Positions 1-3,771 of a stretch of 64,000 nt of DNA are shown one piece after another. Under the pieces are notes generated by a model, which was not told where the DNA came from, made no database searches, and was given only the letters and a program-made list of their open reading frames with translations. The translations under genes were made by a program, and so were the position numbers. Origin of the DNA: Promethearchaeia archaeon (GTDB taxonomy: Archaea > Asgardarchaeota > Lokiarchaeia > Sigyniarchaeales > SOKP01); the NCBI GenBank assembly GCA_029856145.1, contig JAHQWK010000012.1:32001-96000 (forward strand), read 5' to 3'. Position 1 is the first letter of the stretch, and every line of letters starts with the position of its first letter.

Positions 1-852
1 ATTAAAGATGAGCAATTTAATGCTCAATTTGTTTCATTAATTTCTTCAGGTTTCTTAGAAATTGCTCCCTTTCTTAAACCAAAATACGAAGAAGAGATCC
101 AAATTATAGGTGATAAAATCCCAATAAAGGAGATATTATTTATCAAAAAAGAAACACAACCACCTCCTAGATATACTGATACATCATTGCTTAAACTAAT
201 GGAAAAAAATCACTTAGGCACGAAATCAACTAGACCTGTTATAATTAAGCTATTACAGACTCGTGAATTAACAGAACGAATACAATATCATTATCATATC
301 ACGAATTTAGGCAAATTTATTATTGAAAATTTAATTGAAATATGGTTACCATTTTTAAAACCAGATTTTACTAAAAAAGTGGAAGGAAAACTTGAAGAGA
401 TTAAGAATAAGAAGAAAAATATAAAAGAGGTAGTAGATGAAATAAGAATGGAGTTTTTGCAACTATTTGACAAGTTCTTGATAAATAAACATAAACTAGT
501 TTCTAAAATTAATAATTATAAGATTGATTATACCATCCCACTTACATCTTCAAATTGCCCCTTTTGTAATAAAAATCCTATGAAATTCATTAATATAAAA
601 AATAAACGTTTTTTAGTTTGCTCTGATGATAATTGCAAACAATTTTTATCATTACCTAAGAATGGAAAATTACAATTATTAGATTCAATTTGTTCAATCT
701 GTAATTTTAATATTTTCAAAATTACTCTTATGAAATATAAGAAACCTTATACTTACTACTTATGTCCTAAATGCTGGAATGAAGATCGTTCCAACTTTTG
801 TTCTAATTGTAAAGAATTTAAAATTTATAAGGGACAATGCACAAAAAAATAA
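1..852 (+). CDS. topA: Type IA DNA topoisomerase, C-terminal part with zinc-ribbon domains (5' truncated by window)
   Basis: Frame 1 is open from base 1. It contains TQPPPRYTDTSLLKLMEKNHLGTKSTR, typical of topoisomerase IA domain IV, followed by several CxxC zinc ribbons. Confidence 0.9.
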   Translation: MKDEQFNAQFVSLISSGFLEIAPFLKPKYEEEIQIIGDKIPIKEILFIKKETQPPPRYTDTSLLKLMEKNHLGTKSTRPVIIKLLQTRELTERIQYHYHITNLGKFIIENLIEIWLPFLKPDFTKKVEGKLEEIKNKKKNIKEVVDEIRMEFLQLFDKFLINKHKLVSKINNYKIDYTIPLTSSNCPFCNKNPMKFINIKNKRFLVCSDDNCKQFLSLPKNGKLQLLDSICSICNFNIFKITLMKYKKPYTYYLCPKCWNEDRSNFCSNCKEFKIYKGQCTKK

Positions 853-861
853 GCTATTTAT

Positions 862-1200
862 CTAAAAGAAATGCGTAGAATCAAATCTATAAGCTGCTCT
901 TGTTAGCCCGACATAGTTATCATTAAGTTTATACAGCATTTTTCCATTTATAATTTTTTTCTGCAGATAATTGTTTTTAATATAATGATTCAACGATGAT
1001 ATCATCGTGCCCAAAGTGACAGCTCCGATAAATTCATGTCGCTTTTTTGTAGCTCTTATCAATTCTAGTTCAGAATGCCATTGCCCATCAAGAAGTGCTA
1101 TCAATATTTCATTTTTTATAGGAGTATTGATATCTTTAATTTTATTGAATAAATTAGAATAACTTGGCTTATAGTGCGGATTTTCTTCAAAATCTTCCAT
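862..1200 (-). CDS. Hypothetical winged helix-turn-helix protein
   Basis: 112 aa. The pattern EILIALLDGQWHSELEL...LGTMISSL...YLQKKIINGKMLYKL fits a wHTH (helices then a beta-hairpin wing). Confidence 0.55.
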   Translation of the reverse strand: MEDFEENPHYKPSYSNLFNKIKDINTPIKNEILIALLDGQWHSELELIRATKKRHEFIGAVTLGTMISSLNHYIKNNYLQKKIINGKMLYKLNDNYVGLTRAAYRFDSTHFF

Positions 1201-1320: not shown

Positions 1321-2442
1321 TTATAGTAAATTTGGTGGTATTCCTTCATTATAATACTTCACCCGCGTAATCCAATTCTGAGAAAATTCTGGAATGGTAC
1401 CAAGTATAGAGCCACCCACCCACACAGAAAATGTTCTCTCCATCGGAGCGATAATTCTGATTCCTAGATTTTTTTTCTTTCTCCTTGCTAATTCTAATTC
1501 TAATTCTTGATAAATACGCGATTTTATATTAGGGAACATTGAGGATCCTCCTGAAAGAAAAATATTATTCAATAAATCTGGACGAATATCTAAATCACAT
1601 GCATCTATAACGTCCATAATGGCTACATGTAACGAATCTTCTTCCAACTCTGAAGATGGTTTAAATAATAATTCTGGTACCATAAATCGTTCTTTATTAA
1701 GTGAGATAGTTGAACCATCAGGCAAAGAGTATTCTTTCTCATATTGCTCAATACGTTTCAGATCTTCATTATAATCTAATGAGACAAAACAAGCTTTCTC
1801 CTTTAATGCCCTTACTAATTCTCTACGAATTGAAGAATCAACAGACCATCCAATGGATTCTAAAGTCTGTTCCATATAACGAGTTAATACTCTTCCACCT
1901 ATGTCTAAAATCCGTACTGCATGTTCTAACTTATATCCTTCATAGATCGGGACAATTCTTGTATTACTATCTCCAATCTCTACAATCAAACCTGTTTGAA
2001 ATCCTCCAGAGTAAAGAGTTAACATAGAATCTAAGACAGGATAAAATGCCATACATTGATATCGTTCTAAAAACAATTCAAAAATTTTCTCTAAATCTTT
2101 ATATGGAAATAAAGGATGTACCGCAAATAGTACATTAACAAGCGTTGGGTCTACTCTTAAGTTATAAAAGATATAATCAATAATATTTGCTAAATGGTTC
2201 CAATCTACGACAATTCCCTTTTCAATTGGATGAAAAATTTTATACAATCCAATTGATTGAATTTCGTCTCCTACATATATTTCATCTTCACGAGACTCTT
2301 TGCCCCCATAATTGACACCAACATCTTGATATTTAGGTTTTCCAACCATTGTAAGGAATACTTGGGAGGGTGTATCTTCACCCGCGAATCCAATTTTTGT
2401 TGAAAATTGACCGATATCAAGAACAACTGTAAGATTTCCCAT
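1321..2442 (-). CDS. Actin family protein (divergent actin-related protein)
   Basis: 373 aa, colinear with actin: VLDIGQFSTKIGFAGED, YVGDE, PIEKGIV, IVPIYEGY, YSLPDG, KERFMVPELLF, LSGGSSMFP, SVWVGGSIL. Confidence 0.95.
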   Translation of the reverse strand: MGNLTVVLDIGQFSTKIGFAGEDTPSQVFLTMVGKPKYQDVGVNYGGKESREDEIYVGDEIQSIGLYKIFHPIEKGIVVDWNHLANIIDYIFYNLRVDPTLVNVLFAVHPLFPYKDLEKIFELFLERYQCMAFYPVLDSMLTLYSGGFQTGLIVEIGDSNTRIVPIYEGYKLEHAVRILDIGGRVLTRYMEQTLESIGWSVDSSIRRELVRALKEKACFVSLDYNEDLKRIEQYEKEYSLPDGSTISLNKERFMVPELLFKPSSELEEDSLHVAIMDVIDACDLDIRPDLLNNIFLSGGSSMFPNIKSRIYQELELELARRKKKNLGIRIIAPMERTFSVWVGGSILGTIPEFSQNWITRVKYYNEGIPPNLL

Positions 2443-2567
2443 GCCTTAATATTTCTAAATTTAATTGAAGATAATTACCCTAAATAACTATATCTAATAT
2501 ATTATTTTAATTATTTAAAAAAATTCTATGCAATTTATCAAAAAAAAGAAGAAAAATCTTAAGTTTC

Positions 2568-3233
2568 TTATTCTCCTCTCATGATTTTCTTCAGACGATT
2601 TAGCTCATCCAACATCTCATCTCGAAGAGAACCTAAGCCTCCACCAACTTTTGGAGCTACTGAGGGTGCTGCTGGAGCTGGAGGTCCAGGTCTTTTTGCA
2701 AATGCCGGTGCTGCTGGAGGTCCTGCACTTGGAGGGCCACTAGGTGCTTTAGGAGGTCCACCGCCAGCAGGAGGTAATTTCGGAGCTGGAGGTAAATTAG
2801 GTTTTTTGGGAGGTCCGCCACCACTTGGTGCAGTAGGTGGGCCTGCTTTCTTAGGAGGACCCGCACCGGGAGGTTTAGGTGCAGAAGGAGGTCCCCTGCC
2901 AGGAGGTGCAGGAGCTGCTGGGACGGTAGCTGTTGGTGCTGCTGTTGGTGCTGCGGCAGGACTTCCACTACTTAATAAAGAGAATAAGGTACTTGCTGCT
3001 GCGGTTTTAGCTTCACCACCTGTTGGGGCAACAATTTTTTTAGAGGAAGTACTCACAGTTTGAACATCTTCAACAACAGAAACTTCCTTCAAATCTTTCT
3101 GAGCTTTAGCCAATGATTTAATAAAGTCGTTTATTCCTTTTACAGTATCTCCTAAATCATCTGCTAAAGAAGTTAAACCTTTTTTCATAAAATTAATTAC
3201 TCGTTCAATCTTTTTCTGTTCTTTTGAAACCAT
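2568..3233 (-). CDS. Proline-rich protein with N-terminal coiled coil and C-terminal amphipathic helix
   Basis: 221 aa with an ATG start. Helical N-terminus of about 50 aa, about 100 aa of P/G/A/K low complexity with GPP repeats, C-terminus GGGLGSLRDEMLDELNRLKKIMRGE. Confidence 0.8.
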   Translation of the reverse strand: MVSKEQKKIERVINFMKKGLTSLADDLGDTVKGINDFIKSLAKAQKDLKEVSVVEDVQTVSTSSKKIVAPTGGEAKTAAASTLFSLLSSGSPAAAPTAAPTATVPAAPAPPGRGPPSAPKPPGAGPPKKAGPPTAPSGGGPPKKPNLPPAPKLPPAGGGPPKAPSGPPSAGPPAAPAFAKRPGPPAPAAPSVAPKVGGGLGSLRDEMLDELNRLKKIMRGE

Positions 3234-3504
3234 GTTCTACTCAATTCCTCTAATATTATTGTAAAATTGATTAAAATTAAAATTAAAATTACTATTTATA
3301 ACCTTTATATTTTTATTATATTAATATGTATTTATATTTTTATTCCATTCTTTTTCAACTCTATAAATCCCAATATTACGTACATCTAGAAAAAACATTA
3401 ATTATTAAAAAACCTAAACTAATAATATTATATAACATATTTCATTAGTAAGTTTAAAAATTATTAAAAACTCAATTAGAATAAATTTAAAAGGTTTGCA
3501 TAAA

Positions 3505-3771
3505 ATGCCTAAGCGAGAACTATTCATTAAGCGGGTTTATGAAATAGTAAATGAGCTTAAAATTCCCCTAATCGATGAAAGAGTCTATGATAGTGTTAAA
3601 TTCAGTACGGGGGCAGCTGTAGCAGCGGTTATTTTCAGATTTGAGGAGGATGAATCAGTAATACGTGGATTTCTGGGTCTTGCTGAATACTTTCACACAG
3701 TAGTGATAAAGAGAAAGGATGAGTTCTATATTCCCCACGCTTCCATTCTCTTCAGACTTATAAGTGCTTAG
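3505..3771 (+). CDS. Small hypothetical protein of unknown function
   Basis: Globular-looking 88 aa ORF. The ATG at 3505 is more likely than the TTG at 3496. Followed by a T-rich tract. Confidence 0.7.
   Translation: MPKRELFIKRVYEIVNELKIPLIDERVYDSVKFSTGAAVAAVIFRFEEDESVIRGFLGLAEYFHTVVIKRKDEFYIPHASILFRLISA

What the first reader, a model, noticed from the sequence alone, without database searches (positions are those of the whole stretch)
1321..3233. Actin-related gene paired with a coiled-coil / proline-rich / C-terminal helix protein built like an actin nucleation or elongation factor
Seen: 2568..3233 lies 125 nt upstream of the ARP on the same strand. It has an N-terminal amphipathic helix, about 100 aa of GPP/APP/LPP repeats, and ends GGGLGSLRDEMLDELNRLKKIMRGE. 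Established: WASP/WAVE/Ena-VASP proteins combine an oligomerising coiled coil, proline-rich tracts (profilin/SH3/EVH1 ligands) and a short actin-binding amphipathic helix followed by an LKK-type motif (WH2); the VASP F-actin-binding segment is recalled as [17 protein letters not shown]. Inference: the helix plus RLKKI is a WH2-like actin-binding motif, and the two genes form an archaeal ARP + nucleation-promoting-factor module. Caveats: there is no acidic-Trp Arp2/3-binding tail, and the proline runs are only 2 long.
Basis: partly seen in the sequence, partly recalled or inferred. Interest (0 to 1): 0.8.

Follow-up and report, generated by a model that had tools for sequence, protein, structure and literature searches.

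The report
Asgard proline-arm adaptor with docking helix
The gene upstream of this actin-like gene encodes an undescribed Asgard-archaeal adaptor (coiled-coil stalk, floppy proline-rich arm, almost invariant end helix); that helix is a portable docking motif that may grip actin, but it is not a demonstrable WH2/VASP/WASP element, and the pairing with the actin-like gene holds in one taxonomic family only.

Summary
Observation confirmed. Window 2568-3233(-) encodes a 221-aa protein: a 46-residue heptad helix, a short LFxLLSG helix, about 110 residues of GPPK/APP/LPP repeats, and an end helix GGGLGSLRDEMLDELNRLKKIMRGE. The 373-aa actin-family gene lies 125 nt downstream.

Interpretation partly supported. 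The protein belongs to a large, unnamed, Asgard-only family (more than 200 clusters).
- **Synteny:** its actin-paralogue neighbour is conserved in every locus checked in one GTDB family. It lies 44-273 kb away in the sister family, and other families have the protein but no orthologue of this ARP.
- **Transcription:** a T-run follows the stop codon, so the two genes are probably transcribed separately.
- **WH2/VASP:** no WH2, VASP, WAVE or BRK1 signal. The family HMM scores the VASP FAB at 0.5 bits, and the "LKK" is not conserved.

New here:
- The end helix (LRxEMLxELxRL) is a portable motif. It also occurs in 1-3 copies in Ras-like GTPase, Zn-ribbon-like, roadblock-like and membrane-anchored Asgard proteins.
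- An 88-aa orphan gene (3505-3771,+) is the deeper conserved neighbour.

Best reading is an oligomeric tether whose tip docks on a conserved partner. An actin-family groove, arcadin-2-like, is the leading candidate (about 0.35).

The scan reached similar conclusions before on other genomes. The L. ossiferum orthologue is annotated on the wrong strand in GenBank.

The parts
2568..3233 (-). c0: 221-aa coiled-coil / Pro-rich / docking-helix adaptor (P0001)
   Evidence: ORF. More than 200 Asgard homologue clusters, all 'hypothetical'. Conserved blocks. No Pfam or PDB sequence match.
3087..3224 (-). N-terminal 46-residue heptad helix (aa 4-49), probable oligomerising coiled coil
   Evidence: AF2 helix with pLDDT 80-94. 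The profile matches designed and keratin coiled coils only. Hydrophobic residues recur about every 3.5 positions (read from the sequence).
2970..3014 (-). Middle conserved helix AKTAAASTLFSLLSS (aa 74-88); L83 and L87 are invariant across the family
   Evidence: Alignments A1 and A4. Weak AF2 helix. Absent from the membrane-anchored variants.
2646..2969 (-). Disordered Pro/Gly/Ala/Lys arm (aa 89-196) with GPPK-type repeats, variable in length between relatives, and a conserved FAKRP
   Evidence: pLDDT about 50-65. GC island of 54-58%.
2769..2795 (-). Single conserved linear motif LPPAPKLPP (aa 147-155)
   Evidence: Invariant in A1. Relatives carry LPAPPKMPP or LPPPPKLPP.
2571..2645 (-). C-terminal docking helix GGGLGSLRDEMLDELNRLKKIMRGE (aa 197-221): the portable 'LRxEMLxELxRL' motif
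   Evidence: Invariant L203, E206, M207, E210, R213, K215. AF2 helix 200-218. 58 representative clusters in several architectures. Unique in this genome: 55 bits against 9 bits for the next hit.
2540..2556 (-). T-run (TTTTTCTTCTTTTTTTT) 12 nt after the c0 stop, followed by an AT-rich spacer: a terminator-like tract between c0 and the ARP gene
   Evidence: Sequence read. The function is inferred from what is known of archaeal oligo-T terminators.
1321..2442 (-). Actin paralogue ('ARP', P0002), 373 aa, one of four actin-family genes in the genome
   Evidence: Pfam Actin 301 bits. 40% identical to the genome's Lokiactin-like gene and to eukaryotic actin. Substitutions S14Q, G15F, Q137D, D154E, G158S, H161R; 5-aa D-loop insertion; acidified plug.
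3505..3771 (+). c1: 88-aa orphan alpha/beta protein (alternative ATG at 3496), divergently transcribed; the deepest conserved neighbour of c0
   Evidence: Adjacent to c0 in several families and classes in varying orientation. 386 homologues, none named. AF2 pLDDT 89. No fold match: Foldseek E>0.29, best VIA Z 4.4. Its phyletic pattern parallels cytosolic c0.
862..1200 (-). c3: 112-aa small protein that always follows the ARP gene in this family (winged-helix-like by eye; no Pfam hit)
   Evidence: Synteny clusters. No Pfam match.

Best explanation
c0 is a member of an undescribed, Asgard-wide family of helix-tipped adaptors.

Shown:
- A long N-terminal heptad helix. In other classes this is replaced by a membrane anchor plus coiled coil.
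- A flexible proline-rich arm carrying one conserved LPPAPKLPP-type motif.
- A nearly invariant 20-residue amphipathic end helix (Phi-x-x-LRxEMLxELxRL-x-x-Phi-Phi).
- That helix is a portable motif, reused in one to three copies in unrelated Asgard architectures.

Inferred:
- The stalk oligomerises, so several arms each present a docking helix to one conserved partner.
- The single most likely partner is the hydrophobic groove of an actin-family protein (Lokiactin and/or this actin paralogue). Arcadin-2 docks on crenactin, ParR on ParM and WH2 motifs on actin in this way.
- That would make c0 a multivalent tether that gathers or positions actin-family subunits or filaments.
- The N-terminal half probably works with the co-inherited 88-aa protein c1.

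It works like a WH2- or arcadin-type docking protein but is not a member of those families.

Confidence split: the general architecture reading (oligomeric tether with a portable docking helix) is about 0.8. Actin-family as the partner is about 0.35.
For: - Architecture and conservation.
- Charged residues E206, E210, R213 and K215 are invariant. This indicates a specific protein contact rather than membrane binding.
- Portability: the same motif sits at the tip of membrane-anchored coiled-coil/Pro-rich proteins (L057, L059). It also occurs in Ras-like GTPase fusions, in Zn-ribbon-like plus roadblock-like proteins and in a triple tandem array. All named members are Asgard.
- Link to actin: c0 is followed on the same strand by the actin paralogue in 41/41 loci of family f1, in 12 of 13 genera (coordinates). 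In the sister family, c1 lies 8-19 kb from the ARP orthologue.
- The ARP keeps most groove residues: Y143, G146, E167, G168, Y169, L346.
- Precedent: arcadin-2 has a conserved C-terminal helix after an unstructured linker, is encoded beside crenactin and binds its hydrophobic groove. The same paper cites ParR-ParM (PMC5173319).
Against: - No binding was tested. AF-multimer was not available.
- Adjacency to the ARP is confined to one family, inside a block whose housekeeping genes are equally syntenic. It is lost in the sister family, and f4-f7 have c0 without this ARP.
- A T-run follows the c0 stop.
- Neighbours elsewhere are housekeeping genes.
- Domain fusions point to small-GTPase and roadblock-type biology rather than to actin directly.
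- No statistical similarity to any known actin-binding motif.
- Profile hits of the motif are generic coiled coils.
Confidence: 0.35

Rival explanations
1. The docking helix binds a non-actin hub tied to small-GTPase signalling: a Ras/Arf-family GTPase, or a roadblock/longin-type regulator. On this reading c0 is a scaffold in membrane-traffic or signalling pathways, and its position next to the actin paralogue is inherited synteny.
For: - The motif is fused to Pfam Ras/Roc domains in P0277, P0314, P0325 and P0327.
- It is also fused to CPxCG...CCxCF Zn-ribbon-like segments followed by roadblock/longin-looking tails in P0278, P0288, P0305 and P0308 (the tails were judged by eye).
- A Ras-family GTPase is the divergent neighbour of c0 in two genomes of genus g15 (L046, L047).
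- ARP adjacency is not conserved beyond one family.
Against: - Fusion shows association with GTPase biology, not the identity of the binding partner. GTPase-regulated actin binders would give the same pattern.
- This genome has no such fusion protein.
- No structural or binding test was done.
Confidence: 0.3
2. One reading: a true WH2/VASP-type actin-binding motif. On this reading c0 is a nucleation-promoting or elongation factor forming a dedicated two-gene module with the ARP.
For: - The same ingredients are present: an oligomeriser, a Pro-rich tract and an amphipathic helix with LKK.
- By eye the helix aligns with the VASP FAB at L-x-[DE]-E-M...L-x-R-x-[RK]-K.
- Tandem copies of the motif exist in relatives (P0311, P0278), as WH2 repeats do in Spire and Cobl (my own knowledge).
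- Adjacency holds in family f1.
Against: - Pfam WH2 gives no match, even at E<=10 for 33 members or E<=1 genome-wide.
- The VASP FAB scores 0.5 bits against the family HMM.
- K215/K216 vary widely.
- The helix is continuous through LKKIM.
- There is no EVH1, no GAB, no C/A region and no Trp.
- No ARPC4 was found, though that search had no positive control.
- The ARP is closer to actin than to any Arp.
- c0 occurs without this ARP, and the two genes are probably separate transcripts.
- Loki and Odin profilins were reported not to bind the VASP polyproline peptide (PMC8410842).
Confidence: 0.05
3. The end helix is a MIM1-like motif recognised by the MIT domain of Vps4 or of another MIT protein. 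LPPAPKLPP would then be MIM2-like, linking c0 to ESCRT-III remodelling.
For: - The genome's own ESCRT-III proteins end in look-alike helices...AELEKELNRLKSDE, beside Vps4, and ...QLKDEIDKLRKELEG.
- Asgard ESCRT-III C-termini share E-[LI]-x-[KR]-L-K.
- Asgard Vps2/24/46 are reported to carry Leu-rich MIM1-like C-terminal helices, and Vps20/32/60 Pro-rich MIM2-like motifs (PMC7240154).
- The genome has many MIT-like domains.
Against: - The family HMM scores ESCRT-III C-termini at 5.2 bits or less, and mostly below zero.
- The upstream half is one residue out of register, and the hydrophobic L208 aligns with Glu.
- No ESCRT gene lies near c0 in any lineage examined.
Confidence: 0.08
4. The end helix has no external partner. 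It either self-associates, packing on the N-terminal coiled coil or on other copies, or it acts as a membrane-targeting amphipathic helix.
For: - Its best PDB look-alikes are coiled coils such as GCN4 NEVARLKKLM.
- Tandem copies could pair with each other.
- C-terminal amphipathic helices after flexible linkers are membrane-targeting sequences in MinD and FtsA (my own knowledge).
Against: - AF2 does not pack it on the N-terminal helix (pTM 0.22).
- The helix has net charge zero and invariant acidic residues.
- Variants that already have a transmembrane anchor keep the motif.
- Hydrophobic spacing is 3-4-4-3-4 (3.6 per turn), a straight amphipathic face rather than a 3.5-periodic coiled coil (read from the sequence).
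Confidence: 0.1

Closest known systems
Arcadin-2 of Pyrobaculum calidifontis (crenactin regulator; PDB 5LY3; PMC5173319)
   Same: An archaeal protein encoded beside an actin-family gene. A small conserved C-terminal helix is separated from the body by a non-conserved unstructured linker, and the last 17 residues alone dock in the actin hydrophobic groove. c0 has the same layout and, in one family, the same kind of neighbour.
   Different: There is no detectable sequence similarity. Arcadin-2 is described as a monomer sequesterer and depolymeriser. c0 adds a long coiled coil and a Pro-rich arm with conserved linear motifs, and its helix is reused in GTPase and Zn-ribbon-like proteins. Binding of c0 to any actin is untested.
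WH2-domain proteins and Ena/VASP (EVH2: GAB, FAB, tetramerisation coiled coil)
   Same: An oligomerising coiled coil, a proline-rich tract and a short amphipathic helix containing L-K-K. Relatives carry tandem copies of the helix, as WH2 arrays do.
   Different: The domain order is reversed (coiled coil first). There is no EVH1. Pfam WH2 is not matched. The FAB scores 0.5 bits. LKK is not conserved. The helix is predicted continuous for 19 residues. Proline runs are only two long.
WH2-like LKKT-type motifs of Asgard two-domain gelsolins (Loki LVDV, Thor LRRV, Heimdall LKHV; PMC9433394)
   Same: This was the only WH2-like element I found reported for Asgard archaea in the papers searched. It is a short actin-contacting segment.
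   Different: It is an inter-domain linker inside gelsolin folds and is calcium-dependent in Loki. It has no coiled coil or Pro-rich arm and is unrelated in sequence to LRxEMLxELxRL.
MIM1 helices at the C-termini of ESCRT-III (Vps2/24/46) subunits
   Same: A charged amphipathic helix at the extreme C-terminus with an E-L-x-R-L-K core, reached through a flexible acidic or Pro-containing linker.
   Different: HMM scores are at chance level. The upstream half is in a different register. There is no genomic link to ESCRT genes.

Membership tests
WH2 domain (Pfam PF02205) | Sequence matches the WH2 profile | tested here: not met
   No hit for P0001 or its last 40 aa at E<=10. None in 33 family members at E<=10. 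None in the six-frame genome at E<=1.
WH2 domain (Pfam PF02205) | Conserved LKK[TV]-type basic motif that lies extended, a few residues after a short (about 3-turn) helix | tested here: not met
   L214 is conserved, but the next two positions vary (KK, KS, KE, QR, KA, RE, RN, NK) across 62 motif instances. AF2 predicts one continuous helix 200-218 running through LKKIM.
WH2 domain (Pfam PF02205) | [quoted passage not shown] | not testable with these tools
   No complex prediction or assay was available.
Ena/VASP | EVH1 domain, central poly-Pro region, and EVH2 with GAB, FAB and a C-terminal tetramerisation coiled coil | tested here: not met
   No Pfam domain at all. The coiled coil is N-terminal. 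The FAB peptide (PMC10340426) scores 0.5 bits, E 4.5e3, against the family HMM.
WASP/WAVE-type nucleation-promoting factor | WH2 + connector + acidic tail with a conserved Trp, acting on an Arp2/3 complex | tested here: not met
   The protein ends ...KKIMRGE with no acidic-Trp tail. There are no BRK1/WAVE/Abi-like hits for the N-terminus, only generic coiled coils. No ARPC4 match in a 97% complete genome, though that search had no positive control.
Arp2/3-type actin-related protein (for the neighbour P0002) | Orthology to Arp2 or Arp3 rather than to actin | tested here: inconclusive
   The 60 best PDB matches listed are all conventional or Asgard actins (about 290 bits), not Arps. No tree was built. 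It is an actin paralogue with altered catalytic residues Q137D and H161R.
Arcadin-2-like docking proteins (functional class, not a sequence family) | Conserved C-terminal helix after a non-conserved disordered linker | tested here: met
   compared with the description in PMC5173319.
Arcadin-2-like docking proteins (functional class, not a sequence family) | Encoded in a cluster with the actin-family gene it regulates | tested here: inconclusive
   Adjacent in 41/41 loci of one family, but 44-273 kb apart in the sister family. c0 is present without this paralogue in f4-f7.
Arcadin-2-like docking proteins (functional class, not a sequence family) | Helix binds the actin hydrophobic groove | not testable with these tools
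   Needs AF-multimer/AF3 or biochemistry.
MIM1 (MIT-interacting motif 1) | C-terminal helix fitting (D/E)xxLxxRLxxL(K/R), or the Asgard ESCRT-III C-terminal consensus | tested here: inconclusive
   The E-L-x-R-L-K core is shared with the genome's own ESCRT-III tails. HMM scores are 5.2 bits or less, and the canonical spacing is not met.

The most novel reading that the evidence does not exclude
LRxEMLxELxRL is an Asgard-specific actin-binding module, a functional analogue of WH2 that arose independently. If so, c0 would be a multivalent actin assembly or tethering factor. The tandem-motif proteins with a Zn-ribbon-like segment (a layout reminiscent of Spire) and the Ras-like GTPase fusions would be GTPase-coupled actin nucleators or organisers that predate eukaryotes. 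They would have escaped notice partly because the gene is called on the wrong strand in Ca. L. ossiferum.
Probability: 0.15. Interest if true: 0.9.

Novelty: new variant of a known kind. Interest (0 to 1): 0.6.

Why it matters
In the papers I could search, Asgard actin regulation is described as resting mainly on profilins and gelsolins (10.1101/2025.11.30.690169). No nucleator, elongator or membrane tether is described there.

This family has the build of such a factor:
- It is present in several Asgard classes.
- Its tip helix is one of the most conserved short motifs I saw in these genomes.
- The same helix is wired into Ras-like GTPase proteins.

Whether the partner is actin or a GTPase-linked hub, identifying it would add a new node to the pre-eukaryotic cytoskeleton or trafficking toolkit. 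It is directly testable with a 25-residue peptide.

The GenBank wrong-strand annotation in the main cultured model organism means that searches against that annotation cannot contain the protein. I did not check the Prokka annotation used by the preprint, so whether its proteome and Lokiactin co-IP data could have detected it is unknown.

Tried and rejected
- **Pfam** on c0, its ends, 33 members and 15 N-termini: only sub-threshold coiled-coil noise such as DUF948, DUF1664 and MCPsignal. There was one lone CCDC53 hit in one member at E 0.012, which I did not pursue.
- **PDB sequence and profile searches.** Whole protein: a proline-rich stretch of NAA80 at E 7.7. Motif profile: GCN4 and M-protein coiled coils. 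N-terminal profile: designed coiled coils.
- **ESM Atlas** for c0 and c1: own Asgard clusters only; structural rows had TM<0.35.
- **c1 fold search.** Foldseek PDB best E 0.29. VIA-align wide best Z 4.4, to clamp-loader and histidine-kinase fragments. No fold assigned; a roadblock-like guess was not supported.
- **VASP FAB resemblance:** rejected statistically.
- **MIM1 resemblance:** kept only as a weak rival.
- **Neighbours of c0 outside family f1:** adenylosuccinate synthetase, Eco57I-type methylase, a KH protein, radical SAM, PhoU-like, NUDIX and LysRS. There is no theme apart from one Ras GTPase.
- **Co-IP table mapping.** I tried to map the L. ossiferum orthologue onto the published co-IP table. 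The table uses Prokka tags that I could not map, and GenBank annotates the antisense ORF.
- **Exact look-ups** of the sense ORFs of three f3 genomes failed.
Full report
**1. What is in the window**

The window is G000:C13:32001-96000 of a 3.55-Mb, 97%-complete, roughly 29% GC Promethearchaeota (Loki-type Asgard) genome.

On the minus strand, 2568-3233 encodes a 221-aa protein (P0001, "c0"). 1321-2442 encodes a 373-aa actin-family protein (P0002), and a 125-nt spacer separates them.

AlphaFold2 with a 33-sequence alignment gives the following:
- One long helix, aa 4-49 (pLDDT 80-94).
- A weak helix, aa 74-88.
- A disordered stretch, aa 89-199.
- A confident helix, aa 200-218 (pLDDT 85-91).
- No packing between these elements (pTM 0.22).

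The first helix has hydrophobic residues about every 3.5 positions. Its profile matches only designed and keratin coiled coils in the PDB. The proline-rich part is a 54-58% GC island and is not a recent DNA repeat.

**2. The protein family**

c0 has more than 200 homologous clusters of 213-247 aa. All are "hypothetical" and all come from Asgard MAGs.

Five blocks are conserved:
- the N-terminal helix
- TVSTSSK...AKTAAASTLFSLLS
- a single LPPAPKLPP
- FAKRP
- the end helix, which is letter-for-letter invariant across 24 sequences whose overall identity falls to about 66%

In 400 species genomes of the phylum the profile matches 173. These include 117/134 of the window's own GTDB family (f1), all other families of its class, and further classes with weaker scores. 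Pfam, the PDB and the ESM Atlas give the family no name.

**3. The actin-like neighbour**

P0002 is one of four actin-family genes in the genome. It is 40% identical both to the genome's Lokiactin-like gene and to eukaryotic actin.

Mapped on actin numbering:
- Substitutions S14Q, G15F, Q137D, D154E, G158S and H161R.
- Five extra residues in the D-loop.
- An acidified hydrophobic-plug region.
- Most hydrophobic-groove residues are kept (Y143, G146, E167-Y169, L346).

So it is an actin paralogue with a rewired ATPase site. Asgard "ARPs" of this general kind are already published (PMC9834061). Its best solved relatives are actins, not Arp2 or Arp3. No ARPC4 was found, although that search had no positive control.

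**4. Synteny test**

*Within family f1.* The ARP orthologue (at least 61% identity) lies downstream of c0 on the same strand, 0.1-6 kb away. This held in all 41 loci I examined and in 12 of 13 genera; in the 13th genus c0 sits at a contig end (coordinates). In many genera a PIG-L/LmbE-like deacetylase is inserted between the two genes. A small 112-aa gene always follows the ARP. The surrounding housekeeping genes are conserved in the same block, so this adjacency is not stronger than background synteny.

*Outside f1.* The link fails.
- In the sister family f3 an orthologue (48-58% identity) exists but lies 44, 71, 101 and 273 kb from c0. That family includes Ca. L. ossiferum, identified.
- Families f4-f7 have c0, but their best actin hit is at Lokiactin level, so they have no orthologue of this ARP.

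*In the window.* The c0 stop is followed after 12 nt by TTTTTCTTCTTTTTTTT and an AT-rich spacer. By what is known of archaeal oligo-T terminators, this suggests separate transcripts (inference).

**5. A deeper conserved neighbour**

The 88-aa gene at 3505-3771(+) ("c1") is next to c0 in f1, f5, f7 and f19, in divergent, convergent or tandem orientation.
- It has 386 unnamed Asgard homologues.
- Its AF2 model is confident (pLDDT 89; alpha-beta-beta-alpha-beta-beta-beta).
- It has no convincing fold match.

Its phyletic pattern is f1-f7, f19, f26 and f27. This parallels the cytosolic form of c0. It is absent from f9 and f28, where only membrane-anchored carriers of the end helix occur. I therefore infer that c1 works with the N-terminal half of c0, not with the end helix.

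In f3, c1 lies 8-19 kb from the ARP orthologue in four genomes. This is faint additional linkage among the three genes.

**6. The end helix is a portable motif**

Searching 1.84 billion representative proteins with a 36-column profile of the C-terminus gave 58 clusters at E<=0.001. Besides c0-type proteins they include:
- membrane-anchored coiled-coil/Pro-rich proteins ending in the motif
- Ras/Roc-domain proteins with the motif at the very end (P0314, P0326, P0327)
- Ras/Roc-domain proteins with one or two internal copies followed by a CPxCG...CCxCF Zn-ribbon-like segment (P0277, P0325)
- proteins with two or three copies, that Zn-ribbon-like segment and a roadblock/longin-looking tail (P0278, P0288, P0305, P0308; the tail was judged by eye)
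- three tandem copies (P0311)
- one TIR fusion (P0302)

All members that carry names are Asgard. Across 62 instances the consensus is Phi-x-x-L-R-x-E-M-L-x-E-L-x-R-L-x-x-Phi-Phi. In this genome the motif is unique to c0: 55 bits against 9 bits for the next hit.

**7. Tests of the proposed identities**

*WH2/VASP.* There is no Pfam WH2 hit at permissive thresholds. The VASP FAB sequence, confirmed from PMC10340426, scores 0.5 bits against the family HMM. The PDB profile search returns only coiled-coil look-alikes. The helix is continuous through LKKIM. In the papers I could search, the only WH2-like elements described in Asgard lie inside gelsolins (PMC9433394). Loki and Odin profilins were reported not to bind the VASP polyproline peptide (PMC8410842).

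*MIM1.* The genome's ESCRT-III tails (...ELEKELNRLKSDE...LKDEIDKLRKELEG) look similar. Asgard ESCRT-III C-termini share E-[LI]-x-[KR]-L-K (PMC7240154). HMM scores are at chance level (5.2 bits or less), and no ESCRT gene neighbours c0.

*Membrane or self-association.* This is disfavoured by the invariant acidic residues, by retention of the motif in variants that already have a membrane anchor, and by the absence of predicted packing.

**8. Best explanation**

c0 is an oligomeric tether whose proline-rich arms each end in a docking helix for one conserved partner.

The closest described layout is arcadin-2. It has a conserved C-terminal helix after an unstructured linker, is encoded beside crenactin and docks in the actin hydrophobic groove. 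ParR-ParM and WH2 motifs use the same hot spot (PMC5173319).

I take an actin-family groove as the single most likely target (about 0.35). A GTPase-linked hub is a close rival (about 0.3) because of the domain fusions. The architecture and the portability of the motif are shown. Oligomerisation, docking and the partner are inferred.

**9. Relation to earlier work**

Earlier follow-ups of this scan on other genomes reached a similar verdict and named arcadin-2. I checked that paper myself.

I also checked their claim about strand mis-annotation. In Ca. L. ossiferum the GenBank protein at this locus (UYP44328.1, NEF87_000613, "collagen-like") is the antisense ORF, and the sense ORF is absent from the protein collection. 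Searches against that annotation therefore cannot contain this protein. I did not check the Prokka annotation used for the published proteome and Lokiactin co-IP (10.1101/2025.11.30.690169), so whether that experiment could have detected it is unknown.

- the census of motif architectures
- the c1 co-occurrence analysis
- the f3 distances
- the terminator-like tract
- the explicit statistical tests against the VASP FAB and ESCRT-III tails

**10. Limits**

No complex prediction was possible, and no actin-family tree was built.

Noticed in passing
window 3496-3771 (+): The small orphan gene c1 is intact here. In several relatives the matching frame carries one in-frame TAG, TGA or TAA (G184, G198, G177, G204, G170, G175, G241, G151). 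Earlier scan notes on other genomes report in-frame amber codons and tRNA-type (BHB) introns in this same gene family.
   Followed up: partly
window 2581-3063 (+); L060:6381-7070 (+): A 160-aa Gly/Ala-rich ORF runs antisense to the Pro-rich part of c0. It is a by-product of CCN/GCN/GGN codons. In Ca. L. ossiferum the equivalent antisense ORF is the one annotated in GenBank (UYP44328.1), and the real gene is missing.
   Followed up: yes
window 1321-2442 (-): The actin paralogue has Q137D and H161R (the water-activating pair) and S14Q/G15F in the first phosphate loop. It also has a 5-aa D-loop insertion and an acidic 'plug'. ATP hydrolysis and filament contacts probably differ from those of Lokiactin.
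   Followed up: partly
L035:5082-5828 (-) and equivalents in L036, L037, L039, L040, L043, L045: A 248-aa PIG-L/LmbE-like deacetylase (AGHPDDE motif, recognised by eye) sits between c0 and the ARP gene in several genera of the family. It is absent from that position in this window.
   Followed up: no
window 862-1200 (-): A 112-aa protein with no Pfam hit always follows the ARP gene in family f1, sometimes duplicated. It looks like a small winged-helix regulator by eye.
   Followed up: no
L046:5241-5822 (-), L047:5227-5778 (-): In one genus of the sister family a Ras-family small GTPase (Pfam Ras, 131 bits) is the divergent neighbour of c0. This is interesting given the Ras-like fusions that carry the same end helix.
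   Followed up: partly
G000:C9:235159-238545 and G000:C31:25786-29214: Two giant ORFs (1525 and 2140 aa) each carry several MIT-like repeats.
   Followed up: no
window 1-852 (+): This is the 3' part of a topoisomerase gene (Pfam Topoisom_bac) with Cys-rich zinc-finger-like repeats at its C-terminus. It is part of the block that stays syntenic with the c0-ARP pair in family f1.
   Followed up: no
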